Origin: a virus
Reading direction: 5' to 3' (one strand)
Length of the DNA: 10,131 nucleotides
UHGV virus genome: UHGV-0819168
Part shown: one piece after another, positions 1 through 8,797 of the stretch
Layout: each line of letters starts with the position of its first letter
Position numbering within the stretch: position 1 is the first letter of the stretch
Notes under the pieces: generated by a model
What the model saw: the letters and a program-made list of their open reading frames with translations, nothing else
The model's database searches: none
Told to the model about the DNA's origin: nothing
Program-made: the position numbers and the translations under genes

Positions 1-127
1 GCGCTGACAGCTTTACCTGGTGATCTTCAGCATCTTCCCGGGCTATTGTGGTTCGCGCAGTGGCTGATTTTGCTGACATCACCACAGGGGGCAGACGGAC
101 CATTGAACCATGGCCTCCGGAACAAAT
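1..127. repeat. Direct repeat copy 1 (127 bp, identical to 2177-2303); left boundary cut by window start
   Basis: Base-for-base identity of 1-127 with 2177-2303; identity stops at 128 (ttt) versus 2304 (aag). Confidence 0.9.
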
Positions 128-1152: not shown

Positions 1153-1182
1153 TTGACAGTTTTTGTTCTCCGGGGCTATATT
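1153..1182 (+). promoter_or_regulatory. Sigma70-type promoter (TTGACA, 18-bp spacer, TATATT) reading toward the rha-like gene
   Basis: Consensus -35 TTGACA at 1153-1158 and near-consensus -10 TATATT at 1177-1182, preceded by an A/T-rich UP-like tract (1136-1147). Confidence 0.6.
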
Positions 1183-1190
1183 CCTCACAC

Positions 1191-1264
1191 AACCGCAAAA
1201 TCGGTTGTCGGGATTGGCGTCTCGGATAACATCACAACGCATAGCCGCGTTTGCGGTTTTTTTT
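1191..1264 (+). terminator. Terminator-like or attenuator structure in the leader: 9-bp perfect long-range stem (1191-1199 with 1250-1258) followed by T8; possible small RNA of ~75 nt
   Basis: aaccgcaaa at 1191-1199 is the exact reverse complement of tttgcggtt at 1250-1258; a run of eight T follows (1257-1264); it begins at the predicted transcription start of the 1153 promoter. Confidence 0.35.
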
Positions 1265-1424
1265 GCGTTAAGCATTGCCACATTCGCATTATGGTGGGGC
1301 GTGCAGGGGCGGAGAAATCCGCGCCGGGTTTTGTGATGACCGGTTACGCCAACCCTGTACGTCTCACCACCTCCCTGATTGGCGTCAGAGGTGGTGATCA
1401 TCCAATTAATTGGAGTCATCACAT

Positions 1425-1982
1425 ATGAATACAGCTATAACTTTTTCTAACGAGTCACCAAAAGTCTTTTTCAAAGATGGTCGCCTGGTTACCACCTCTC
1501 AAGCTGTTGCCGACTACTTCGATAAACAACATAAACACGTTTTAGCTAAGATTGACACACTCGACTGCTCTCCCGAATTTACATCAGCCAACTTTTCGGC
1601 CGATGTTCAGACTGTCGAAATTGGCAACGGCGCAGAACGTGAATCACGATGCTACCTGATCACAAAAGACGGCTTCATGTTCCTCGTAATGGGATTTACT
1701 GGCAAAAAAGCAGCCAGACTAAAAGAAGCTTACATTGAAAAATTTAACGCAATGGAAGAAGAACTCCACAAACGTCCTCCTGCAGCACAAAACTCCCCCG
1801 CCCCAAATAATGGATGCGCATTACTGATCCACTTCGATAAACACGGTCAGGTCGAGTTCACAGAAAAAGTCCCCGCCGATGCGATGGTATGCACGCTGGA
1901 ACGGTTTAAATTTTATCTGGAGCAACATGGGTGGATCGTTGCCCGTAAAGAACAATTGGTGGAAAGGTTGATGCGGTTTTAA
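1425..1982 (+). CDS. Rha-family phage regulatory protein (antirepressor-like); ORF track 1410-1982, ATG 1425 with GGAG at 1412-1415 is the likelier start
   Basis: N-terminal Rha signature: VTTSQAVADYFDKQHKHVLAKIDTL and YLITKDGFMFLVMGFTGKKAARLKEAYIEKFNAMEEEL. Followed by an intrinsic terminator. Confidence 0.8.
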   Translation: MNTAITFSNESPKVFFKDGRLVTTSQAVADYFDKQHKHVLAKIDTLDCSPEFTSANFSADVQTVEIGNGAERESRCYLITKDGFMFLVMGFTGKKAARLKEAYIEKFNAMEEELHKRPPAAQNSPAPNNGCALLIHFDKHGQVEFTEKVPADAMVCTLERFKFYLEQHGWIVARKEQLVERLMRF

Positions 1983-1993
1983 TGAATGCAAAA

Positions 1994-2022
1994 CCCCGGA
2001 TGATCACCGGGGTTAATTTTAT
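1994..2022 (+). terminator. Rho-independent terminator after the rha-like gene
   Basis: GC stem ccccgg (1994-1999) / ccgggg (2007-2012) with loop atgatca, followed by T-rich ttaatttt. Confidence 0.6.
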
Positions 2023-2343: not shown

Positions 2344-2477
2344 AACCGCAGCACGTTCCTGCATACGACGTGTCTGCGGCATAATCCCAATGATTACTCC
2401 CTGACAGGATTTGCAGGCCACTCAATATCAGGTGCAGTTGATGTATCAACACGATTCAACAATACCCGATATTTATT
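2344..2477. repeat. Direct repeat A (~134 bp, ~90% identical to 3394-3526): 3' end of a tfa gene plus a 34-bp imperfect palindrome (2346-2379)
   Basis: Alignment by eye with 3394-3526; contains the last ~28 codons of the minus-strand tfa-like ORF and the palindrome ccgcagcacgt...acgtgtctgcgg. Confidence 0.85.
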
Positions 2478-2663
2478 CCATGCCTCCAGCAACGATCTTT
2501 CTTCCTCCGTTGCGATTTCCAGATCTACAGCATCCTGCAGTGGCGCAATATACTCACTGAATTCCTGGATGTAGAACTGTGTGGTGACGGTCTTCCAGCC
2601 ATTCGGCTCCTGCTGTATCGAAGCATACCAGGCTATTTCAATATCGCTATGCTGCGGCAGCAT
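2394..2663 (-). CDS. tfa: Tail fibre assembly protein, lambda Tfa-like C-terminal domain (89 aa; short, possibly chimeric or remnant)
   Basis: C-terminal 55 aa match lambda Tfa as recalled: [54 protein letters not shown] versus [56 protein letters not shown]-terminal 35 aa unrelated. Confidence 0.6.
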
Positions 2664-2719: not shown

Positions 2720-3388
2720 ATGGTGAAATCAATGAAAAAAAACACAGATGATGGGGCTAAAATTTACACACCACTTACCCTAAAGCTTTATGACTGGTGG
2801 GTTTTGGGAGTATCAAATCGGCTTGCATGGGGATGTCCTACAAAGGAACACCTTCTTCCACACTTTCTGGAACATGTAGGTAACAACCATCTGGATATTG
2901 GTGTTGGAACTGGGTTTTACCTTACTCACGTACCTGAGAGTAGTCTGATATCTTTAATGGATTTGAACGAAGCTAGCCTGAACGCGGCATCTACAAGGGC
3001 TGGGGAATCAAAAATTAAACATAAAATTAGCCATGATGTTTTTGAACCTTATCCCGCGGCGTTACATGGTCAATTTGATTCCATTTCCATGTTTTACCTT
3101 CTTCACTGCCTGCCTGGAAATATATCTACAAAAAGCTGTGTAATACGCAATGCGGCGCAGGCCTTAACTGACGATGGAACTCTATACGGAGCCACAATTC
3201 TTGGCGATGGAGTTGTGCACAATAGCTTCGGTCAAAAACTGATGCGCATTTACAATCAGAAAGGCATCTTTTCAAACACAAAAGATTCCGAAGAAGGCTT
3301 AACACATATACTCTCAGAGCATTTCGAGAATGTTAAAACCAAGGTTCAAGGTACTGTAGTAATGTTTTCCGCTTCAGGGAAAAAATAG
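2720..3388 (+). CDS. Class I SAM-dependent methyltransferase (Rossmann fold, ~220 aa, substrate unknown); AT-rich moron; alternative start ATG 2732
   Basis: Motif I hh-D-h-G-x-G-x-G (HLDIGVGTGFY), post-I acidic residue (SLMDLNE), motif II (FDSISMFYLLHCLP), motif III (LTDDGTLYGATIL) in canonical order. No DPPY/NPPY or C5-cytosine MTase motifs. Markedly lower GC than flanking genes (about 37% in a hand-counted 60-nt line at 3001-3060). Confidence 0.75.
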   Translation: MVKSMKKNTDDGAKIYTPLTLKLYDWWVLGVSNRLAWGCPTKEHLLPHFLEHVGNNHLDIGVGTGFYLTHVPESSLISLMDLNEASLNAASTRAGESKIKHKISHDVFEPYPAALHGQFDSISMFYLLHCLPGNISTKSCVIRNAAQALTDDGTLYGATILGDGVVHNSFGQKLMRIYNQKGIFSNTKDSEEGLTHILSEHFENVKTKVQGTVVMFSASGKK

Positions 3389-3393
3389 CATCC

Positions 3394-3526
3394 AACCGCA
3401 GCACGTTCTTGCTTAAGACGTGCTGCGGCATAATCCCAATGATTACTCCCTGACAGGGTTCGTAGGCCACTCAATATCAGGTGCAGTTGATGTATCAACA
3501 CGGTTCAGTAACACCCGATACTTTTT
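3394..3526. repeat. Direct repeat B (~133 bp, ~90% identical to 2344-2477): perfect 11-bp-stem palindrome (3396-3428) plus a 27-codon tfa 3' fragment ending in a TAG where Trp is expected
   Basis: ccgcagcacgt (3396-3406) / acgtgctgcgg (3418-3428) perfect inverted repeat. Minus-strand translation of 3446-3526 gives [27 protein letters not shown], preceded by TAG at the Trp position. Confidence 0.85.
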
Positions 3527-3574
3527 CTAGGCTTCCACCACCAGCACGACAAGATGCCGCATACAGTGAACCAG

Positions 3575-3894: not shown

Positions 3895-4863
3895 ATGACC
3901 GGAGAACTGAAAATTGGCACGGTGAATGCGCTGCGAATTTTCAATGATGCCTTCGGTCTTATTTTCCGTCGTTCAGAAGATTTTCTTCATTTCATTCCGA
4001 CGGCTGAAGGACAAGGCGAAAACGGTGATATCGGCCCATTAAGGCCATTCGCTATAAATCTGAGAACAGGTGCTATATCTGTCAGCCACGGGGCCAAAAT
4101 TGATGGTGGGCTGGCGCTTGGTACAGATAACGCACTGGGCGGTAATTCCATTACTCTCGGAGATAACGACACTGGTATTAAACAGGGCGGCGACGGTGTC
4201 CTTTTATTCTATTCAAATGGACAACTGGCATTTGGGCTTCAACCCGCATCTGCTGATTTTTATAAGCGGGTTGCATATATTCATCAGGGAATAATTCCTG
4301 ATGGAAGTGGCGCATTTGCAGACCAGTTGAATAATGCCACCGCGCCTTTTGTTCAGACGCAGTTTGCCTGGAATCCCACTCCTGGTGGTCATTACGTGCC
4401 GATAGTTAAGGGCTTGTCCATTCGCAATGGACAGGGCTATCCCGGCGCGGTCAGCTTTGGGTATTTACTGACAGAACAGTATGGATTTCCGGTTCCATGT
4501 ATTCATATGCGTGGCGATGGCGGTAATGATGCTTTATGGCAGTTTAACCCGAACGATAAATCCTTTATTTCACCGGGTGCTCTTATTGCGGGTGGCGTCC
4601 GTTATAACACCGATGGAAATATATTTGGTGGGTGCTGGGGGTCAAACTTAAATGATTACCTGAATAGTTCTTTTATCAGAAATGTGCGTCTGGGAGGCAG
4701 ACGTTCTGACACATTATATCGCGGAGGACTTTGCGAACCAGGTAATGGTCATGTGACAACAGGATTGCAAATTATTGGTGAGGTTGATGGAGATGACTGG
4801 ATGGTGTCACGACCACTACAAAAATACATTTCTGGTAACTGGTATAACGTTGAACAGGCATAG
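3895..4863 (+). CDS. Silent alternative side-tail-fibre C-terminal cassette; open frame runs from the crossover site (3832) with no own initiation context, expressed only after inversion
   Basis: Frame open from 3832 through the 3824-3849 site in the same phase as stf through the 6905-6930 site. Shares LGGNSITLGDNDTGIKQGGDG and C-terminal RPLQKYISGNWYNV with the expressed stf C-terminus. Confidence 0.65.
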   Translation: MTGELKIGTVNALRIFNDAFGLIFRRSEDFLHFIPTAEGQGENGDIGPLRPFAINLRTGAISVSHGAKIDGGLALGTDNALGGNSITLGDNDTGIKQGGDGVLLFYSNGQLAFGLQPASADFYKRVAYIHQGIIPDGSGAFADQLNNATAPFVQTQFAWNPTPGGHYVPIVKGLSIRNGQGYPGAVSFGYLLTEQYGFPVPCIHMRGDGGNDALWQFNPNDKSFISPGALIAGGVRYNTDGNIFGGCWGSNLNDYLNSSFIRNVRLGGRRSDTLYRGGLCEPGNGHVTTGLQIIGEVDGDDWMVSRPLQKYISGNWYNVEQA

Positions 4864-4878
4864 CCATCAGGAGAATAT

Positions 4879-5406
4879 ATGCAACATCTGAAAAATATTA
4901 CCGCCGGAAACCCCAAAACCATTGAGCAGTATCAGCTTACGAAAAAAGCTGGCGTTATCTGGCTATATACAGAAGACGGTAAAAACTGGTATGACGAATT
5001 AAAAAACTTTCAGGATGATACTTTAAAAATAGCTTATGACCAGAAGGGGATTATTCGTTGTATTGAGAAAGACGTATCAACACTTAACCCTGACGGGTTA
5101 AGTGTTGTTGAGTTACCGAATATAACAGCCAACCGTCGCGCCGATATCTCGGGAAACTGGAAGTTTCTGGATGGTAAAGTAGTAAAGCGGGAATATACAA
5201 AACAGGAACTGCAACAGCAGGCAGAGTTACAAAAAGCCGCTTTGCTTTCCGAAGCGGAGTCTGTGATTCAACCGCTGGAACGTGCTGTCAGACTGAATAT
5301 GGCAACTGATGAGGAACGCACACGACTGGAATCATGGGAACGCTACAGCGTTATGGTCAGCCGTGTGGATACTGCAAAGCCTGAATGGCCACAGAAACCA
5401 GAATAA
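4879..5406 (+). CDS. tfa: Tail fibre assembly protein (second copy, partner of the silent fibre cassette)
   Basis: [38 protein letters not shown].. is 60-70% identical by eye to the 5437-5970 Tfa; C-terminus ..[31 protein letters not shown] is the Tfa C-terminal pattern. AGGAG RBS at 4867-4871. Confidence 0.85.
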
Positions 5407-5436: not shown

Positions 5437-5970
5437 TTATTCTGGTGGTTCCGGGAATGTTACAGGAAGAACCGAGGTATCAGTTGTCTCAACCTGTTGC
5501 ACGTATCGCATCCAGTTCATCAGTTGCTGTCTGTCTGAATCAGTGATAATCCCCAAAGTAAGCTGTGTTTGCCAGAACTGCGTTTTTTCTCTGGCCTGCT
5601 GTAATAATATTTTTTTCTGGTTTTCCGTCTGTAGGCGCAACTCTTCTTCGGTATATACACGTTTAATGACTGCGCCATCTTTAAACATCCATTTACCTGA
5701 GTCGTCAGCACGCCGGTTGGCGGTAATATCAGGAATCTCAACGACGCTATAACCTTCAGGGTTAAGTGTGGAGGCATCTTTGGTTATGGCAACAATAATA
5801 TTATTTTCATCGTAAACAATCTTTATGGTGTCTGGCTGAAAGTTTTTCACTTCCTCATACCAGTTTTTTCCGTCCTCAGAGTAAAGCCAGATAACTCCGT
5901 GTTTCTTTGTTAACTCATACTGTTCCAGTGTTTTAGCATTACCCGCTTTTATGTTCTTTAAGTGCATCAT
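5437..5970 (-). CDS. tfa: Tail fibre assembly protein (currently expressed orientation), translationally coupled to stf
   Basis: [58 protein letters not shown].. matches the E. coli prophage TfaE/TfaR-type family. ATG lies 1 nt after the stf stop. Confidence 0.9.
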
Positions 5971-5971
5971 A

Positions 5972-8797
5972 TTAAACGCTCGCTACATTATACCAGGTGC
6001 CATTTATATACTTTTGAACGGGTCTGTAATAAACGCCCGCTATATTATCGGCAGAGTTAGACCCTGTATCCTGAACATTAATACCAGACAATACATGACC
6101 TGAAGGGCACTGGAAATTCCATGTTTGCCAGTTGTTCACTCCATAATATTGCTGTGAACCAAGTCGAACATCTTTCACATAACGGGAATCAAAGTTACCG
6201 TAATCCGAGGGGTTAACACGCCCTGTAATATTTATGGTTTTATTACTTTGAATGCTTCCGGAGACAAAGCGCATAACATGGACGTTATTAGCATAAACAT
6301 CCAGATTACCATCGCCATTTTGTTTAAAGCCCGTGTCATTATCACCCAATACAATCGAATTACCGCCAAGAGCACTGGATGTTCCGATACCCAGTGCACC
6401 ATTCAGTTGACCACCAGATAACGGCAGTGCACCAACATCTCCTGCTGAAGGCTTTCTGGTGGTGGTGTAAAATTCGGACCAGTCGGCTTCAAAACCATAA
6501 CCATCACGGGCTGAACGATAAAAAATACCGCCATTTTTATAATTAATCCGAAACTGAGCTGCAGGACAACTTCCTTCTCCCATATAAAAATGAATAATTA
6601 ACGTTGATGCACCACTAATAGTTGCGTTATAGGCTCCGCTACTCCAGTTCCATCCAACTGCTTTATCATTCGCAACGGTGCTTCCTGTTTTCCCTAAGGC
6701 AAACGCACCAACATGACTTGCTTTTAATGTGATATCGGAGGAACCATCAAAAGCCACATTGCTTATTTTCCTGGCAGTTTTTAATTTTGCAGCTGTAGAA
6801 GCATTGCCGGATAGTTCACCAGAAAGGCCACCGCTGAATGTTTGTCGATTAGTCCAGGTATTCGCTGTACTGAGTAACGGTATTTTCTCCCCGCTTGTGC
6901 CGAGTTCTCGTAAACCGAGGTATTCGATAACGGCGGCAACGGTCGATTTCGCAAGAATATCCCGCCCAACTTTTGTCAGGGTTGCCAGACTGGCAACATC
7001 ATTCCCCGTAAAATACGGAAACCTGTCTGCCGCAGTAGCAAGCCCGGCCAGCGCCGTCAGGGTGGCATCTTTCGGTTGCTTACCCGCAAGCGCGCTAGTC
7101 ATGGTGGTCGCAAAATTCGGGTCGTTGCCCAACGCCGCAGCCAGCTCGTTCAGCGTATTCAGTGCGTCAGGCGACGAGTCCACGAGGGCAGCGATCGCAG
7201 CCATAACATAAGCCGTGCTTGCGATTTGGGTATTATTCGTTCCCTGTCGCGCAGTTGGTGTTGTTGGCGTTCCGGTCAGTGCAGGACTATTTAAGGGCGC
7301 TTTCTTGTTCGTTTCACCCATTACCGCCTTAACCGCTTTTGGCGTTGCCGCCAGTGACTCGGAAGTGCTGTTGGTCGCACTGCTGAGCTGTACTATCCCC
7401 TTTTTCGTCGTGCTCGCATCCTCAAGCGCCACGGCGGATGCAATATCCTCTGCCCGTTTTGCCGCTGTCTCGGCGCGCGTTGCCGCGGATTCCGCCGTAC
7501 TTTTGCTCTGAGCTGCCGCCGTCGCACTGCCAGCTGCCTCTGTCGCCTTCGTGGATGCCGTCGTGGCGCTGCCCTTTGCTGCTGACGCCTGTCTGGTCGC
7601 CTCATCTTTTGAAGCAGACGCAGATGATGCCGATGACGCCGCTGAACTGGCTGACGATGCGGCTGCCGCCTTAGAGGAAGCAGCATTGTCTGCTGAAGTC
7701 TTTGCATTTGTTTCAGAGGTTTTTGCTGCAGAAGCAGACCTCGCTGCTGCAGTGGCTTGCTCAGTGGCTTTGCCAGCCTTCGTTGTGGCTGTTGAAGCGG
7801 ATGATGCGGCGCTTTCTGCCGATTTTCCGGCGGCGGTGGCACTGGCTGAGGCCTGCCCGGCACTTGTTGACGCGGCACTGGCAGATAATGCAGCCGCTGT
7901 TTTTGAACCTGCCGCAGCTGAGGCGCTCTGTCCCGCTGCTGTTTCAGAAGACTTAGCGTTCGTCTCGGACGTTTTTGCCGCCTTCGCGGAATTTCCTGCC
8001 GCCGTTGCCGAGGAAGCTGCACTACTGGCACTTGATGATGCATTCGTTTCTGAAGATTTCGCTGCCTCTTTTGAGGCCGCCGCACCCCGTGCCGAGGTGG
8101 CAGCTTCTGACGCCTTCGTGGTCGCTGTGGATGCAGAAGTGGCTGCCGATTTTTGTGATGCTGCGGCATTCGTTTCTGACGTTTTCGCGGCACTGGCGCT
8201 GGTAGCTGCCGCGCTTTTTGATGACTCTGCAGCAGCAGCACTTTTTGCTGCTTCACGGGCCTTTGTCGATGCCGTTCCTGCGCTGGAAGACGCTGACTGA
8301 GCCGACGACGCGGCCTGTCCGGCTGACGTGCTGGCGGCACGTGATGAGGCTGCAGCATCGGTTGCATGAGTTGCCGCCTCGCTGGCTGATGCACTGGCAT
8401 CGCTGGCTGATTTTTTCGCGGCTGCCGTATTCTGTGCAACCGCGGAGGCGTTACGTGACACCTCTTCTACCATCTGCTCAAAGCGGCGCAGTGCCTCCGG
8501 TCGGACATCATCCTCCGTCATGGCACCGAGAAAATCATTCAGCGTACCTGGTCTGGAACCTTCATAGACGGTAATGGTCCCGGCATGTGAAGGCGGAAAA
8601 CCTTCAACCAGCAGGGTGACGCTGTACTGACCATGCTCAACATCCATGCTGTAACGTCCGGCTTCATCCGGATTTTCAGAGGCCACCGTGTTCACCACCA
8701 CCGTGCTGCTGGTTCGTCTGGCCTTCAGCACAATGGTGCAGTTCTGTACTGGTTTTCCTGTGCCATCTTTAAGCACGCCAGAAATTTTTACTGTCAT
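5972..8797 (-). CDS. stf: Side tail fibre protein, lambda Stf-like (941 aa): conserved N-terminal domain, long Ala/Ser/Thr-rich repeat region, C-terminal ~310 aa encoded inside the invertible segment
   Basis: N-terminus [74 protein letters not shown] is near-identical to lambda Stf as recalled; repeated AAKTSETNA units; VIEYLG junction at the crossover site. Confidence 0.9.
6905..6930 (+). other. Gin/Pin-family 26-bp inversion crossover site inside stf (left-type orientation)
   Basis: ttctcgtaaaccgaggtattcgataa resembles gixL as recalled (TTCCTGTAAACCGAGGTTTTGGATAA), is inverted relative to the 3824-3849 site, and encodes VIEYLGLRE in the stf frame. Confidence 0.65.

What the first reader, a model, noticed from the sequence alone, without database searches (positions are those of the whole stretch)
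1153..1424. Strong promoter followed by a ~235-nt structured leader before rha: possible small RNA or attenuator
A near-consensus sigma70 promoter (1153-1182) would start transcription at about 1189. The first 9 nt of that transcript (aaccgcaaa) pair perfectly with 1250-1258 just before a T8 run, making a ~75-nt unit with paired ends and a terminator-like 3' end. Further downstream a 10-bp inverted repeat (caccacctcc at 1354-1363 with gaggtggtga at 1386-1395) sits just before the rha start. None of the ORFs in this stretch (1048-1422 minus, 1153-1428 plus) looks protein-like. This could be a regulatory RNA, or an attenuator or operator controlling the Rha-type antirepressor.
Basis: partly seen in the sequence, partly recalled or inferred. 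Interest (0 to 1): 0.5.

Follow-up and report, generated by a model that had tools for sequence, protein, structure and literature searches.

The report
P1-type antisense-RNA switch before rha
The 235-base "leader" is a known phage immunity cassette: a short decoy RNA (IsrK/c4-a1b1), then the C4 antisense repressor RNA, then the C4 target sites on the ribosome-binding site of an Rha-type antirepressor gene; it is ordinary, but databases mislabel it as a protein gene.

Summary
The features are real, but the key element was missed. Rfam finds two full-length RNA families above their curated thresholds: isrK at 1189-1263 and C4 antisense RNA at 1287-1374. The layout matches phage P1 immI. A promoter (1153-1182) is followed by sites a1 (1212-1221) and b1 (1230-1237) in a terminated ~75-nt RNA. 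C4 follows with b' (1331-1340) and a' (1346-1355). Then come a2 (1377-1386) and b2 (1415-1423), with b2 lying between the Shine-Dalgarno sequence and the rha ATG (1425).

Across 22 lineages, including P1 and Gifsy-1, b', b1 and b2 change together, and four a' alleles each match their own a1 and a2. The second inverted repeat is real but misplaced by 11 and 2 nt. It is a conserved hairpin that displays a2 and competes with the C4 closing stem.

The mutations published for Gifsy-1 IsrK/orf45 map base for base onto a1:a' and the C4 stem. The "ash family protein" called here by RefSeq and Pfam PF10554 shows no coding signature.

Verdict: a new member of a known kind, of low to moderate interest.

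The parts
1153..1182 (+). sigma-70 promoter (-35 TTGACA 1153-1158, 18-nt spacer, -10 TATATT 1177-1182); predicted start A1189
   Evidence: 11/12 match. Hexamers at the same position in homologues. 1189 is Rfam isrK position 1 and maps to the Gifsy-1 +1.
1189..1264 (+). IsrK-like / c4-a1b1 small RNA: hairpin 1 (1189-1208), hairpin 2 (1209-1224), single-stranded b1 region, intrinsic terminator (1243-1258 plus the T8 run 1257-1264)
   Evidence: Rfam RF01394 72.2 bits (GA 50), full length. RF03163 c4-a1b1 43.8 bits, E 5.5e-10. Helices covary. Terminator.
1212..1221 (+). a1 site GATTGGCGTC, in hairpin 2, complementary to a'
   Evidence: D2, I4; G1216/G1219 correspond to Gifsy-1 G28/G31.
1230..1237 (+). 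b1 site CATCACAA, complementary to b'
   Evidence: I7, D8. All 8 b1:b' pairs show compensatory changes. Cognate versus non-cognate test.
1287..1374 (+). C4 antisense RNA (P1 stem 1292-1308/1353-1369, P2 1309-1322, P3 1323-1344). The mature form is predicted as about 1293-1371, by analogy with the annotated P1 c4 ends.
   Evidence: Rfam RF01695 75.9 bits (GA 45). MFE -47.4, z -5.2. Covariation. P1 mature ends.
1331..1340 (+). b' (TTGTGATGAC), loop of P3: the variable specificity determinant
   Evidence: I5, I7; about 20 distinct b' alleles, each matching its own b1 and b2.
1346..1355 (+). a' (ACGCCAACCC), single-stranded junction between P3 and P1
   Evidence: I2, I4; 4 a' alleles with matching a1 and a2; C1347/C1350 correspond to Gifsy-1 C159/C162.
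1364..1397 (+). a2 hairpin: the 3' strand of the C4 P1 stem (TCACCACCTC) pairs instead with GAGGTGGTGA, with a2 GATTGGCGTC (1377-1386) at the tip.
   Evidence: I3, D2. MFE -19.5, z -3.3. The outer 7 bp are kept in at least 20 of 22 lineages; the inner 3 bp are allele-specific.
1412..1427 (+). rha translation initiation region: SD GGAG 1412-1415, b2 GTCATCACA 1415-1423, ATG 1425-1427. It can also be sequestered by a local hairpin with 1391-1408.
   Evidence: (I5, I11).
1291..1428 (+). 45-codon leader ORF (equivalent of Gifsy-1 orf45). Its ATG lies in the 5' strand of the C4 P1 stem, and its TGA overlaps the rha ATG (ATGA).
   Evidence: The peptide and frame are not conserved, so it is a possible translational-coupling device, not a protein gene.
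1425..1982 (+). Rha-family regulator (presumed antirepressor), the regulated gene
   Evidence: Pfam PF09669 95.3 bits. TIGR02681. Strong third-codon-position bias, 15/8/68.
1992..2014 (+). terminator-like hairpin that ends the isrK-C4-rha unit
   Evidence: 8 pairs, 6 GC, T-rich tail.

Best explanation
Window 1153-1428 is a P1-immI-type antisense-RNA immunity cassette that keeps the Rha-family antirepressor gene silent in the lysogen.

Transcription starts at about 1189. Most transcripts stop at the intrinsic terminator (1243-1264) and give a ~75-nt IsrK-like RNA that carries target-mimic sites a1 and b1. Read-through transcripts carry C4 (1287-1374), then a2 and b2, then rha.

C4 may act folded inside the leader, or after excision as a stable ~79-nt RNA. 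In either form its a' junction and b' loop pair with a2 (1377-1386) and b2 (1415-1423). Because b2 lies between the Shine-Dalgarno sequence and the ATG, ribosome binding to rha is blocked. Untranslated RNA is then likely to be terminated or degraded.

The short a1b1 RNA competes for the same a' and b' surfaces. It acts as a decoy, so a rise in its level frees the rha start region. Translation then begins, possibly helped by the 45-codon leader ORF whose stop overlaps the rha ATG.

The b' / b1 / b2 triplet is the allele-specific 'immunity code', while a' / a1 / a2 is nearly constant.

Shown here: the identity of the two RNAs, their folds, and the three-way complementarity with its covariation. 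Inferred from P1 and Gifsy-1 experiments: processing, repression, decoy action and antirepressor function of Rha.
For: - Rfam matches are full length and above the gathering score for isrK and C4. c4-a1b1 scores E 5.5e-10.
- The order and spacing match the annotated P1 immI region: promoter, a1, b1, c4, a2, b2, gene.
- Exact repeats a1 = a2 and b1 = b2, and their complements inside C4, are present.
- On 22 lineages the cis structure is 97.7% paired, with 20 of 46 pairs changed on both sides (0/500 shuffles).
- a1:a' plus b1:b' are 90% paired, with 14 of 18 pairs changed on both sides (0/500; slid controls at most 0.12 against 0.427).
- In a register-free test, cognate b':b1 runs average 9.1 nt against 5.3 for non-cognate pairs, and b':b2 9.5 against 6.4 (0/10,000 permutations each). 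Four a' alleles each have matching a1 and a2.
- The published Gifsy-1 compensatory mutations G28-C162, G31-C159 and G114-C175 map onto a1:a' and the C4 P1 stem, and onto identical bases in the window.
- In Gifsy-1, IsrK in trans raises antirepressor translation about 140-fold, and an ~80-nt processed species (STnc1160) comes from the read-through transcript.
- Homologous cassettes precede pRha, ORF6N, Bro-N or Icd-like genes.
Against: - No expression data exist for this allele.
- Pairing energies within the single sequence are modest. Of 500 shuffled targets, 1 to 34 do as well, depending on the site.
- There is no icd-like ORF as in P1, and b2 sits after rather than on the SD, unlike most homologues.
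- The Gifsy-1 authors explain their data by a cis structural switch plus leader-ORF translation, without a trans-acting repressor RNA. Over-expressing the orf45/STnc1160 region did not counteract IsrK.
- Antirepressor activity has not been shown for this Rha protein.
- In this allele the IsrK-like RNA has a lower-energy rod fold that partly buries a1 and b1.
Confidence: 0.75

Rival explanations
1. Purely cis mRNA switch, as in the published Gifsy-1 model. The read-through leader folds into an inactive structure with a1 paired to a'. The short IsrK-like RNA opens it in trans, so the 45-codon leader ORF is translated and ribosomes are passed to rha through the ATGA overlap. The C4-like fold is only an mRNA structure, and no excised repressor RNA acts.
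For: The window keeps the 45-codon ORF and the ATGA junction exactly as in Gifsy-1. In Gifsy-1, start and stop mutations in orf45 reduce activation, and orf45 is translated. Constitutive STnc1160 did not block IsrK toxicity.
Against: The leader ORF is 8, 14, 28, 33 or 35 codons long, or fused to the next gene, in other lineages. It therefore often cannot couple to the downstream start, yet the RNA cassette and the b2 complementarity are kept. This model does not explain b':b2 covariation at the downstream RBS. P1 C4 is an established trans-acting RNA (annotation; Weinberg supplement).
Confidence: 0.15
2. P4-type transcription control. The C4/CI-like RNA pairs with the a1b1 and a2b2 regions of nascent transcripts and causes premature termination. 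Regulation is then mainly transcriptional, with the translation block secondary.
For: Phage P4's immunity region carries the same isrK plus C4 pair. The Gifsy-1 paper cites CI RNA as acting through termination. In Gifsy-1, IsrK in trans raised read-through transcript levels about 8-fold.
Against: b2 lies on the rha initiation region, and in most homologues it abuts the SD. The effect in Gifsy-1 was 140-fold on translation against 8-fold on transcription.
Confidence: 0.1
3. One reading: the 5' end of the transcript pairs with the 3' half of the terminator. This makes a closed ~75-nt unit, or an attenuator that tunes read-through into rha.
For: The 9-bp pairing is perfect and belongs to the MFE of 1189-1264 (-24.0 kcal/mol; pair probability 0.99 at equilibrium).
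Against: It is not conserved: 57.6% paired against 58.0% in shuffles, with runs of 3-7 nt in other lineages. Prefix folding shows hairpins 1 and 2 form first. In the full 242-nt leader the MFE returns to the three-hairpin form.
Confidence: 0.05
4. The stretch encodes a real 91-aa 'Ash family' protein, as RefSeq annotates it (WP_001296031.1).
For: Pfam PF10554 scores 53.8 bits. The same annotation appears in more than 400 E. coli genomes.
Against: - Its TTG start codon is the -35 hexamer of the only promoter.
- Variable sites show no codon-position bias (18/14/21), against 15/8/68 in the adjacent rha of the same genomes.
- The frame and ORF length are not conserved, and indels of 2 and 4 nt are tolerated.
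- The Pfam match covers exactly isrK plus C4.
- The P4 ORF that hits PF10554 overlaps the P4 C4/CI RNA.
Confidence: 0.03

Closest known systems
Phage P1/P7 immI operon (c4 - icd - ant)
   Same: A promoter is followed by a1, b1, then C4 with a' and b', then a2 and b2 at the RBS of the next ORF, all in the same order and with similar spacing. The C4 fold and the 5' GGUGGGG / 3' CCACC ends are shared. Allele-specific b' is the basis of heteroimmunity.
   Different: There is no icd ORF: b2 directly precedes an Rha-family gene instead of icd-ant1/2. b2 lies between the SD and the ATG. No C1 operator is recognisable. A strong terminator follows b1. The a' allele differs (ACGCCAA against CUGUCAA).
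Salmonella Gifsy-1 isrK - orf45 - anrP locus (Hershko-Shalev et al. 2016, PMC4825925)
   Same: It is 75% identical over window 1165-1398. It has the same isrK and C4 Rfam matches, the same 45-codon leader ORF with an ATGA junction, and the same bases at the experimentally paired positions.
   Different: The cargo is ORF6N AnrP in Gifsy-1 and pRha here. The b' allele differs. Gifsy-1 has isrJ downstream and the late-gene activator Q upstream, whereas this cassette lies at the prophage end beside the ompW attachment-site remnant. That paper does not describe the locus as a C4 system.
Phage P4 immunity (CI RNA with seqA / seqB / seqC)
   Same: The P4 leader carries the same isrK and C4 families. 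The repressor is a processed RNA with targets on both sides.
   Different: P4 CI is reported to act through premature transcription termination of the replication operon, not on an antirepressor RBS (as cited, and from general knowledge).
Phage P22 sar RNA / ant
   Same: A small RNA limits antirepressor translation by pairing at the ant initiation region (review PMC12197685).
   Different: sar is a true cis-antisense transcript from the opposite strand. There is no C4 fold, no duplicated target sets and no decoy RNA. It is not homologous.

Membership tests
C4 antisense RNA (Rfam RF01695; P1/P7 immI) | Full-length covariance-model match at or above the curated gathering score | tested here: met
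   75.9 bits against GA 45, model positions 1-87 of 87, at 1287-1374 +.
C4 antisense RNA (Rfam RF01695; P1/P7 immI) | Long closing stem P1 enclosing two hairpins (P2 with a stable tetraloop, P3 with the b' loop), supported by covariation | tested here: met
   The MFE equals the Rfam structure, -47.4 kcal/mol, z -5.2. P1 has 6 pairs changed on both sides and P2 has 5 of 5. The P2 loop is GAAA.
C4 antisense RNA (Rfam RF01695; P1/P7 immI) | a' and b' complementary to a2 and b2 downstream, with b2 at the ribosome-binding site of the next gene | tested here: met
   a' 1346-1352 pairs with a2 1379-1385. b' 1332-1340 pairs with b2 1415-1423, between SD 1412-1415 and ATG 1425. Cognate beats non-cognate, 0/10,000 permutations.
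C4 antisense RNA (Rfam RF01695; P1/P7 immI) | A second target set, a1 and b1, upstream of c4 in the same transcript | tested here: met
   a1 1212-1221 and b1 1230-1237. 14 of 18 pairs have compensatory changes.
C4 antisense RNA (Rfam RF01695; P1/P7 immI) | Excision from a longer transcript (RNase P at the 5' end) to give a stable ~77-nt RNA | not testable with these tools
   The sequence is compatible: the same 5' GGUGGGG and 3' CCACC as the annotated mature P1 c4. An ~80-nt processed species is reported for the Gifsy-1 homologue.
C4 antisense RNA (Rfam RF01695; P1/P7 immI) | Downstream icd-like ORF translationally coupled to ant | tested here: not met
   There is no Icd-like ORF; the next gene is pRha. 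Other homologues show Icd-like, pRha, ORF6N or Bro-N genes in this slot. This concerns operon content, not the RNA family.
IsrK sRNA (Rfam RF01394; Gifsy-1) | Full-length covariance-model match at or above the gathering score | tested here: met
   72.2 bits against GA 50, model positions 1-77 of 77, at 1189-1263 +.
IsrK sRNA (Rfam RF01394; Gifsy-1) | Own promoter and Rho-independent terminator giving a ~75-nt RNA, with partial read-through into the antirepressor operon | tested here: inconclusive
   The promoter and terminator sequences are present and conserved. Transcript ends and read-through cannot be measured here.
IsrK sRNA (Rfam RF01394; Gifsy-1) | The middle of IsrK pairs with the downstream 'orf45' region (G28-C162, G31-C159) | tested here: met
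   The equivalent bases G1216-C1350 and G1219-C1347 are present and identical.
IsrK sRNA (Rfam RF01394; Gifsy-1) | 45-codon leader ORF whose stop overlaps the antirepressor start (AUGA) | tested here: met
   ATG 1291 to TGA 1426-1428, overlapping ATG 1425.
c4-a1b1 motif (Rfam RF03163) | Covariance-model match at or above the gathering score | tested here: not met
   43.8 bits against GA 46.7 (E 5.5e-10) at 1176-1228. The two hairpins and a1 are present. The shortfall comes from a G-U and a mismatch in hairpin 2. Close homologues and P1 pass.
Ash protein family (Pfam PF10554) | Profile match above the gathering score | tested here: met
   53.8 bits against 26, residues 9-83 of ORF 1153-1428.
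Ash protein family (Pfam PF10554) | Evidence that the ORF is a protein-coding gene (conserved frame, codon-position bias, start downstream of a promoter) | tested here: not met
   The frame and length vary. Codon-position variability is 18/14/21 against 15/8/68 in rha. The TTG start is the -35 hexamer.
Terminator/antiterminator attenuator | A conserved alternative pairing that competes with the terminator hairpin | tested here: not met

The most novel reading that the evidence does not exclude
The short terminated IsrK-like RNA is a dedicated decoy (sponge) for the C4 repressor RNA made from the same promoter. The efficiency of the terminator at 1243-1264 would then set the decoy-to-repressor ratio and so decide whether the antirepressor is made. 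On this reading Salmonella 'IsrK / orf45 / STnc1160', P1 'a1b1 / C4' and P4 'seqA / CI' are one system, and its hypervariable b' loop defines dozens of mutually orthogonal immunity specificities among enterobacterial prophages. The papers found here treat these as separate systems: the IsrK paper does not mention phage P1 or RNase P, although it compares STnc1160 with P4 CI RNA, and a 2025 review lists IsrK and c4 separately.
Probability: 0.5. Interest if true: 0.45.

Novelty: new member of a known kind. Interest (0 to 1): 0.28.

Why it matters
For this window the result is mainly a correct annotation. Two non-coding RNAs and their target sites replace a spurious 'ash family protein' CDS that RefSeq carries in more than 400 complete E. 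coli genomes. The Rha gene also gains a predicted post-transcriptional off-switch.

More generally, the comparison shows that Pfam PF10554 is very probably a conceptual translation of the C4/CI RNA cassette. It shows that Rfam isrK and c4-a1b1 describe the same element. It also shows that the mutational data for Gifsy-1 IsrK are direct experimental support for the a1b1 competitor idea proposed for P1.

The set of about 20 co-varying b'/b1/b2 alleles is a natural library of orthogonal RNA repressor, target and decoy triplets. It could be used to predict cross-immunity between prophages, or as synthetic-biology parts.

Tried and rejected
- tRNA/tmRNA scan of the window: nothing found.
- RNAduplex energy matrices of b' and a' against whole target regions. 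They were noisy, because G+C-rich stem flanks and the invariant a sites dominated. I replaced them with a register-free count of contiguous pairs on defined windows.
- Column-based count for a2:a'. It gave only weak covariation, because the three lineages with other a' alleles are misaligned there. The register-free test shows 7-nt matches in all of them.
- Literature search with 'immI' and 'icd ant'. It was swamped by unrelated words.
- Genome-contig scan with the translated leader. It returned only 6 loci, because the peptide patterns are allele-specific.
- LexA-box-like control of the promoter: none seen by eye, and not pursued.
- Minus-strand ORF 1048-1422: no family match.
- A protein-coding reading of 1153-1428: rejected.

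Full report
**1. What is in the sequence**

- Reading 900-1700 and the consensus scan confirm the promoter TTGACA-18-TATATT at 1153-1182. It matches 11 of 12 positions and is the best in the window.
- A short G+C hairpin lies at 1243-1258 and runs into eight T (1257-1264).
The reported 1354-1363 / 1386-1395 is wrong.
GATTGGCGTC occurs twice, at 1212-1221 and 1377-1386. CATCACA occurs twice, at 1230-1236 and 1417-1423. Both are complementary to segments at 1331-1340 and 1346-1355.

**2. Identity**

- A scan of the window against Rfam at curated thresholds gives exactly two matches, both full length.
  - isrK (RF01394) scores 72.2 bits against a gathering score of 50, at 1189-1263.
  - C4 antisense RNA (RF01695) scores 75.9 bits against 45, at 1287-1374.
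- A permissive scan adds c4-a1b1 (RF03163) at 1176-1228. It scores 43.8 bits against 46.7, with E 5.5e-10.
- C4 alone folds into the Rfam structure at -47.4 kcal/mol, z = -5.2.
- The order of parts is promoter, a1, b1, C4 (b', a'), a2, b2, start codon. This is the order annotated in the phage P1 immI region: P1c4, a1, b1, c4, a2, b2, icd.
- Weinberg et al. 2010 describe the c4-a1b1 motif as two hairpins containing a1 and lying just 5' of b1. They recall the proposal that a1b1 competes with a2b2 for C4.
- In Rfam scans of homologues, c4-a1b1 and isrK overlap on the same bases, including in Gifsy-1 itself. P1 carries c4-a1b1.
- So isrK is the a1b1 element plus a terminator.

**3. Context**

- The window is the end of a lambdoid prophage of E. 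coli.
- Its contents are an integrase 3' part (48-797), an ompW remnant at the attachment site, the cassette, rha (1425-1982, Pfam pRha), tail-fibre-assembly fragments, a methyltransferase, tail fibres, lom and J.
- The identical 291-nt cassette (at least 99% identity) occurs in 417 records of complete E. coli genomes. The listed records are labelled 'ash family protein | Rha family transcriptional regulator' and show no RNA feature.

**4. Comparative test**

- I collected 80 viral contigs, 6 genomes and 6 annotated phages: Gifsy-1, phiV10, Hafnia yong2, VT2-Sakai, mEp460 and P1.
- I reduced these to 22 lineages that differ in a' or b' and aligned them as A1.
- The cis structure comprises three isrK hairpins and C4 P1/P2/P3.
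  - It is 97.7% paired, with 20 of 46 pairs changed on both sides.
  - Its covariation score is 0.354, against 0.157 in shuffles (0/500) and at most 0.07 when slid.
- The intermolecular-type pairings a1:a' and b1:b' are 90% paired.
  - 14 of 18 pairs are changed on both sides, including all 8 b1:b' pairs.
  - The score is 0.427 against 0.151 in shuffles (0/500).
- A register-free test compared each lineage's b' loop with its own and with other lineages' target windows.
  - b1 gave 9.1 against 5.3 contiguous pairs.
  - b2 gave 9.5 against 6.4.
  - No permutation out of 10,000 reached the observed value in either case.
- Four a' alleles each have exactly matching a1 and a2: ACGCCAA, GUGCAAA in Y. 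pestis, UUUCCAC in mEp460 and CUGUCAA in P1.
- Thus b'/b1/b2 is a co-evolving specificity triplet, and a'/a1/a2 is a nearly fixed anchor.

**5.

The end-to-end pairing:
- It is the MFE for the isolated 76-nt RNA of this allele, at -24.0 kcal/mol against about -16 to -21 for the three-hairpin form.
- It is absent elsewhere. On the 22 lineages 57.6% of cells pair, against 58.0% in shuffles. Runs are 3-7 nt in other lineages, whose MFE is the three-hairpin fold.
- In the 242-nt leader of the window itself, the MFE is again the three-hairpin form.
- I treat it as an allele-specific coincidence: the stem of hairpin 1 happens to resemble the 5' half of the terminator.

The second inverted repeat:
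- It is a conserved hairpin. The 3' strand of the C4 closing stem (CACCACC) pairs with GGUGGUG and presents a2 at its tip.
- The outer 7 bp are kept in at least 20 of 22 lineages, with double changes in P1 and Aeromonas. The three inner pairs are specific to this allele.
- It is mutually exclusive with the C4 P1 stem. That is the structure A / structure B alternative described for Gifsy-1.

**6. Link to experiments**

- I took Rfam isrK position 1 as +1 in Gifsy-1. The published positions then fall exactly as follows.
  - A107 and A119 start the two AUGs of 'orf45'.
  - G28-C162 and G31-C159 are a1:a'.
  - G114-C175 is in the C4 P1 stem.
- The C4 match spans +103 to +186, so 'orf45' is the C4 region.
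- The same bases occur in the window at G1216-C1350 and G1219-C1347.
- In Gifsy-1, IsrK supplied in trans raises anrP translation about 140-fold and transcript level about 8-fold.
- An ~80-nt species (STnc1160) is processed from the read-through transcript, and the action is Hfq-independent.
- That paper compares STnc1160 with P4 CI RNA. A search of its text found no mention of phage P1 or RNase P.
- A 2025 review lists IsrK and c4 as separate systems.
- P4 itself carries isrK plus C4 in its immunity leader.

**7. Coding or not**

- RefSeq calls 1153-1428 an 'ash family protein', and Pfam PF10554 matches residues 9-83, which is nt 1177-1401.
- Its TTG start is the -35 hexamer.
- In other lineages the ORF that begins at the AUG inside C4 is 8, 14, 28, 33, 35 or 45 codons long, or runs in frame into the next gene. 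Indels of 2 and 4 nt in the b' loop shift the frame of the conserved 3' half.
- Variability shows no codon periodicity: 0.72/0.70/0.73 bits over 22 lineages.
- Within three genomes the leader gives 18/14/21 variable sites by codon position, while the adjacent rha gives 15/8/68.
- The P4 'cI' ORF also hits PF10554, and it overlaps the P4 C4 match.
- The ORF is therefore not a protein gene.
- The 45-codon version with its ATGA junction may still serve translational coupling, as shown for Gifsy-1.

**8. Mechanism proposed**

- Shown here: two RNA genes, their folds, and duplicated target sites with three-way covariation. One target site (b2) lies between the SD (1412-1415) and the ATG (1425) of rha.
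- Inferred from P1, P4 and Gifsy-1:
  - C4, in cis or after RNase P excision at about U1292/G1293, pairs with a2 and b2 and blocks rha translation. Excision at that point would also destroy the leader-ORF AUG.
  - The abundant terminated a1b1 RNA competes for a' and b' and relieves the block.
  - Rha then acts as an antirepressor.
- The same slot holds ORF6N AnrP, Bro-N, pRha or Icd-like genes in homologues.
- One allele-specific feature is a local hairpin (about 1391-1423) that can also sequester the SD and b2.

**9. Verdict**

- This is a real, conserved regulatory RNA cassette of a well-known kind, present here as an uncharacterised allele.
The structural details and the central element were not.
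- Interest is low to moderate. The useful by-products are annotation corrections and the unification of the IsrK, C4 and CI literatures.

Noticed in passing
window 1153-1428; L095 (phage P4) 8168-8584 and 8420-8507: Pfam PF10554 (Phage_ASH) and the RefSeq name 'ash family protein' appear to be conceptual translations of the isrK-C4 RNA cassette. The Pfam match covers exactly the two RNAs. The P4 'cI' ORF that hits PF10554 overlaps the P4 C4/CI RNA. No coding signature is present.
   Followed up: yes
L089 (Gifsy-1) 1525-1741; window 1189-1428: Rfam isrK (RF01394, no clan) and c4-a1b1 (RF03163, clan CL00128) annotate the same bases. The published Gifsy-1 'orf45' / STnc1160 coincides with a full C4 match. 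The IsrK paper does not mention phage P1 or RNase P, and a 2025 review lists IsrK and c4 separately.
   Followed up: yes
window 1-127 and 2177-2303: A 127-bp direct repeat is 100% identical in both copies. It is an internal fragment of the integrase gene (48-797 and upstream) repeated downstream of rha, where RefSeq calls a DUF4376 pseudogene on the other strand. It is probably a recombination scar between tandem prophages at the ompW site.
   Followed up: partly
window 2344-2491 and 3394-3540: Direct repeats of about 150 bp, about 90% identical, bracket a class I SAM-dependent methyltransferase gene (2720-3388). They are 3' fragments of tail-fibre-assembly genes. The methyltransferase looks like cargo inserted between duplicated tfa ends.
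   Followed up: partly
window 3895-5406 (+) versus 5437-8797 (-): Two opposed sets of tail-fibre C-terminus plus tail-fibre-assembly genes are present. A recombinase pseudogene lies next to them in a near-identical genome (L002 7469-7648). The arrangement resembles the remnant of an invertible host-range segment (Mu G / P1 C / e14 type).
   Followed up: no
window 7697-8191 (inside tail-fibre gene 5972-8797, - strand): Five diverged copies of a 33-nt unit, spaced in multiples of 3, correspond to the Ala/Ser-rich repeat region of the 941-aa tail fibre.
   Followed up: no
window 1391-1423: An allele-specific hairpin (GGUGAUCAUCCAAUU / AAUUGGAGUCAUCAC, about -14 kcal/mol) can hide the rha SD and b2 without C4. 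Relative to most homologues this allele has b2 moved from the 5' side of the SD to between the SD and the ATG.
   Followed up: partly
homologous cassettes in Stx phages (e.g. L092 VT2-Sakai 1219-1404): A review (PMC12197685) describes a 20-nt RNA, '24B_1', of Stx phage phi24B that represses the antirepressor gene d_ant. Stx phages carry this same isrK-C4-ant cassette, so 24B_1 may be a fragment of it. Its coordinates were not checked.
   Followed up: no
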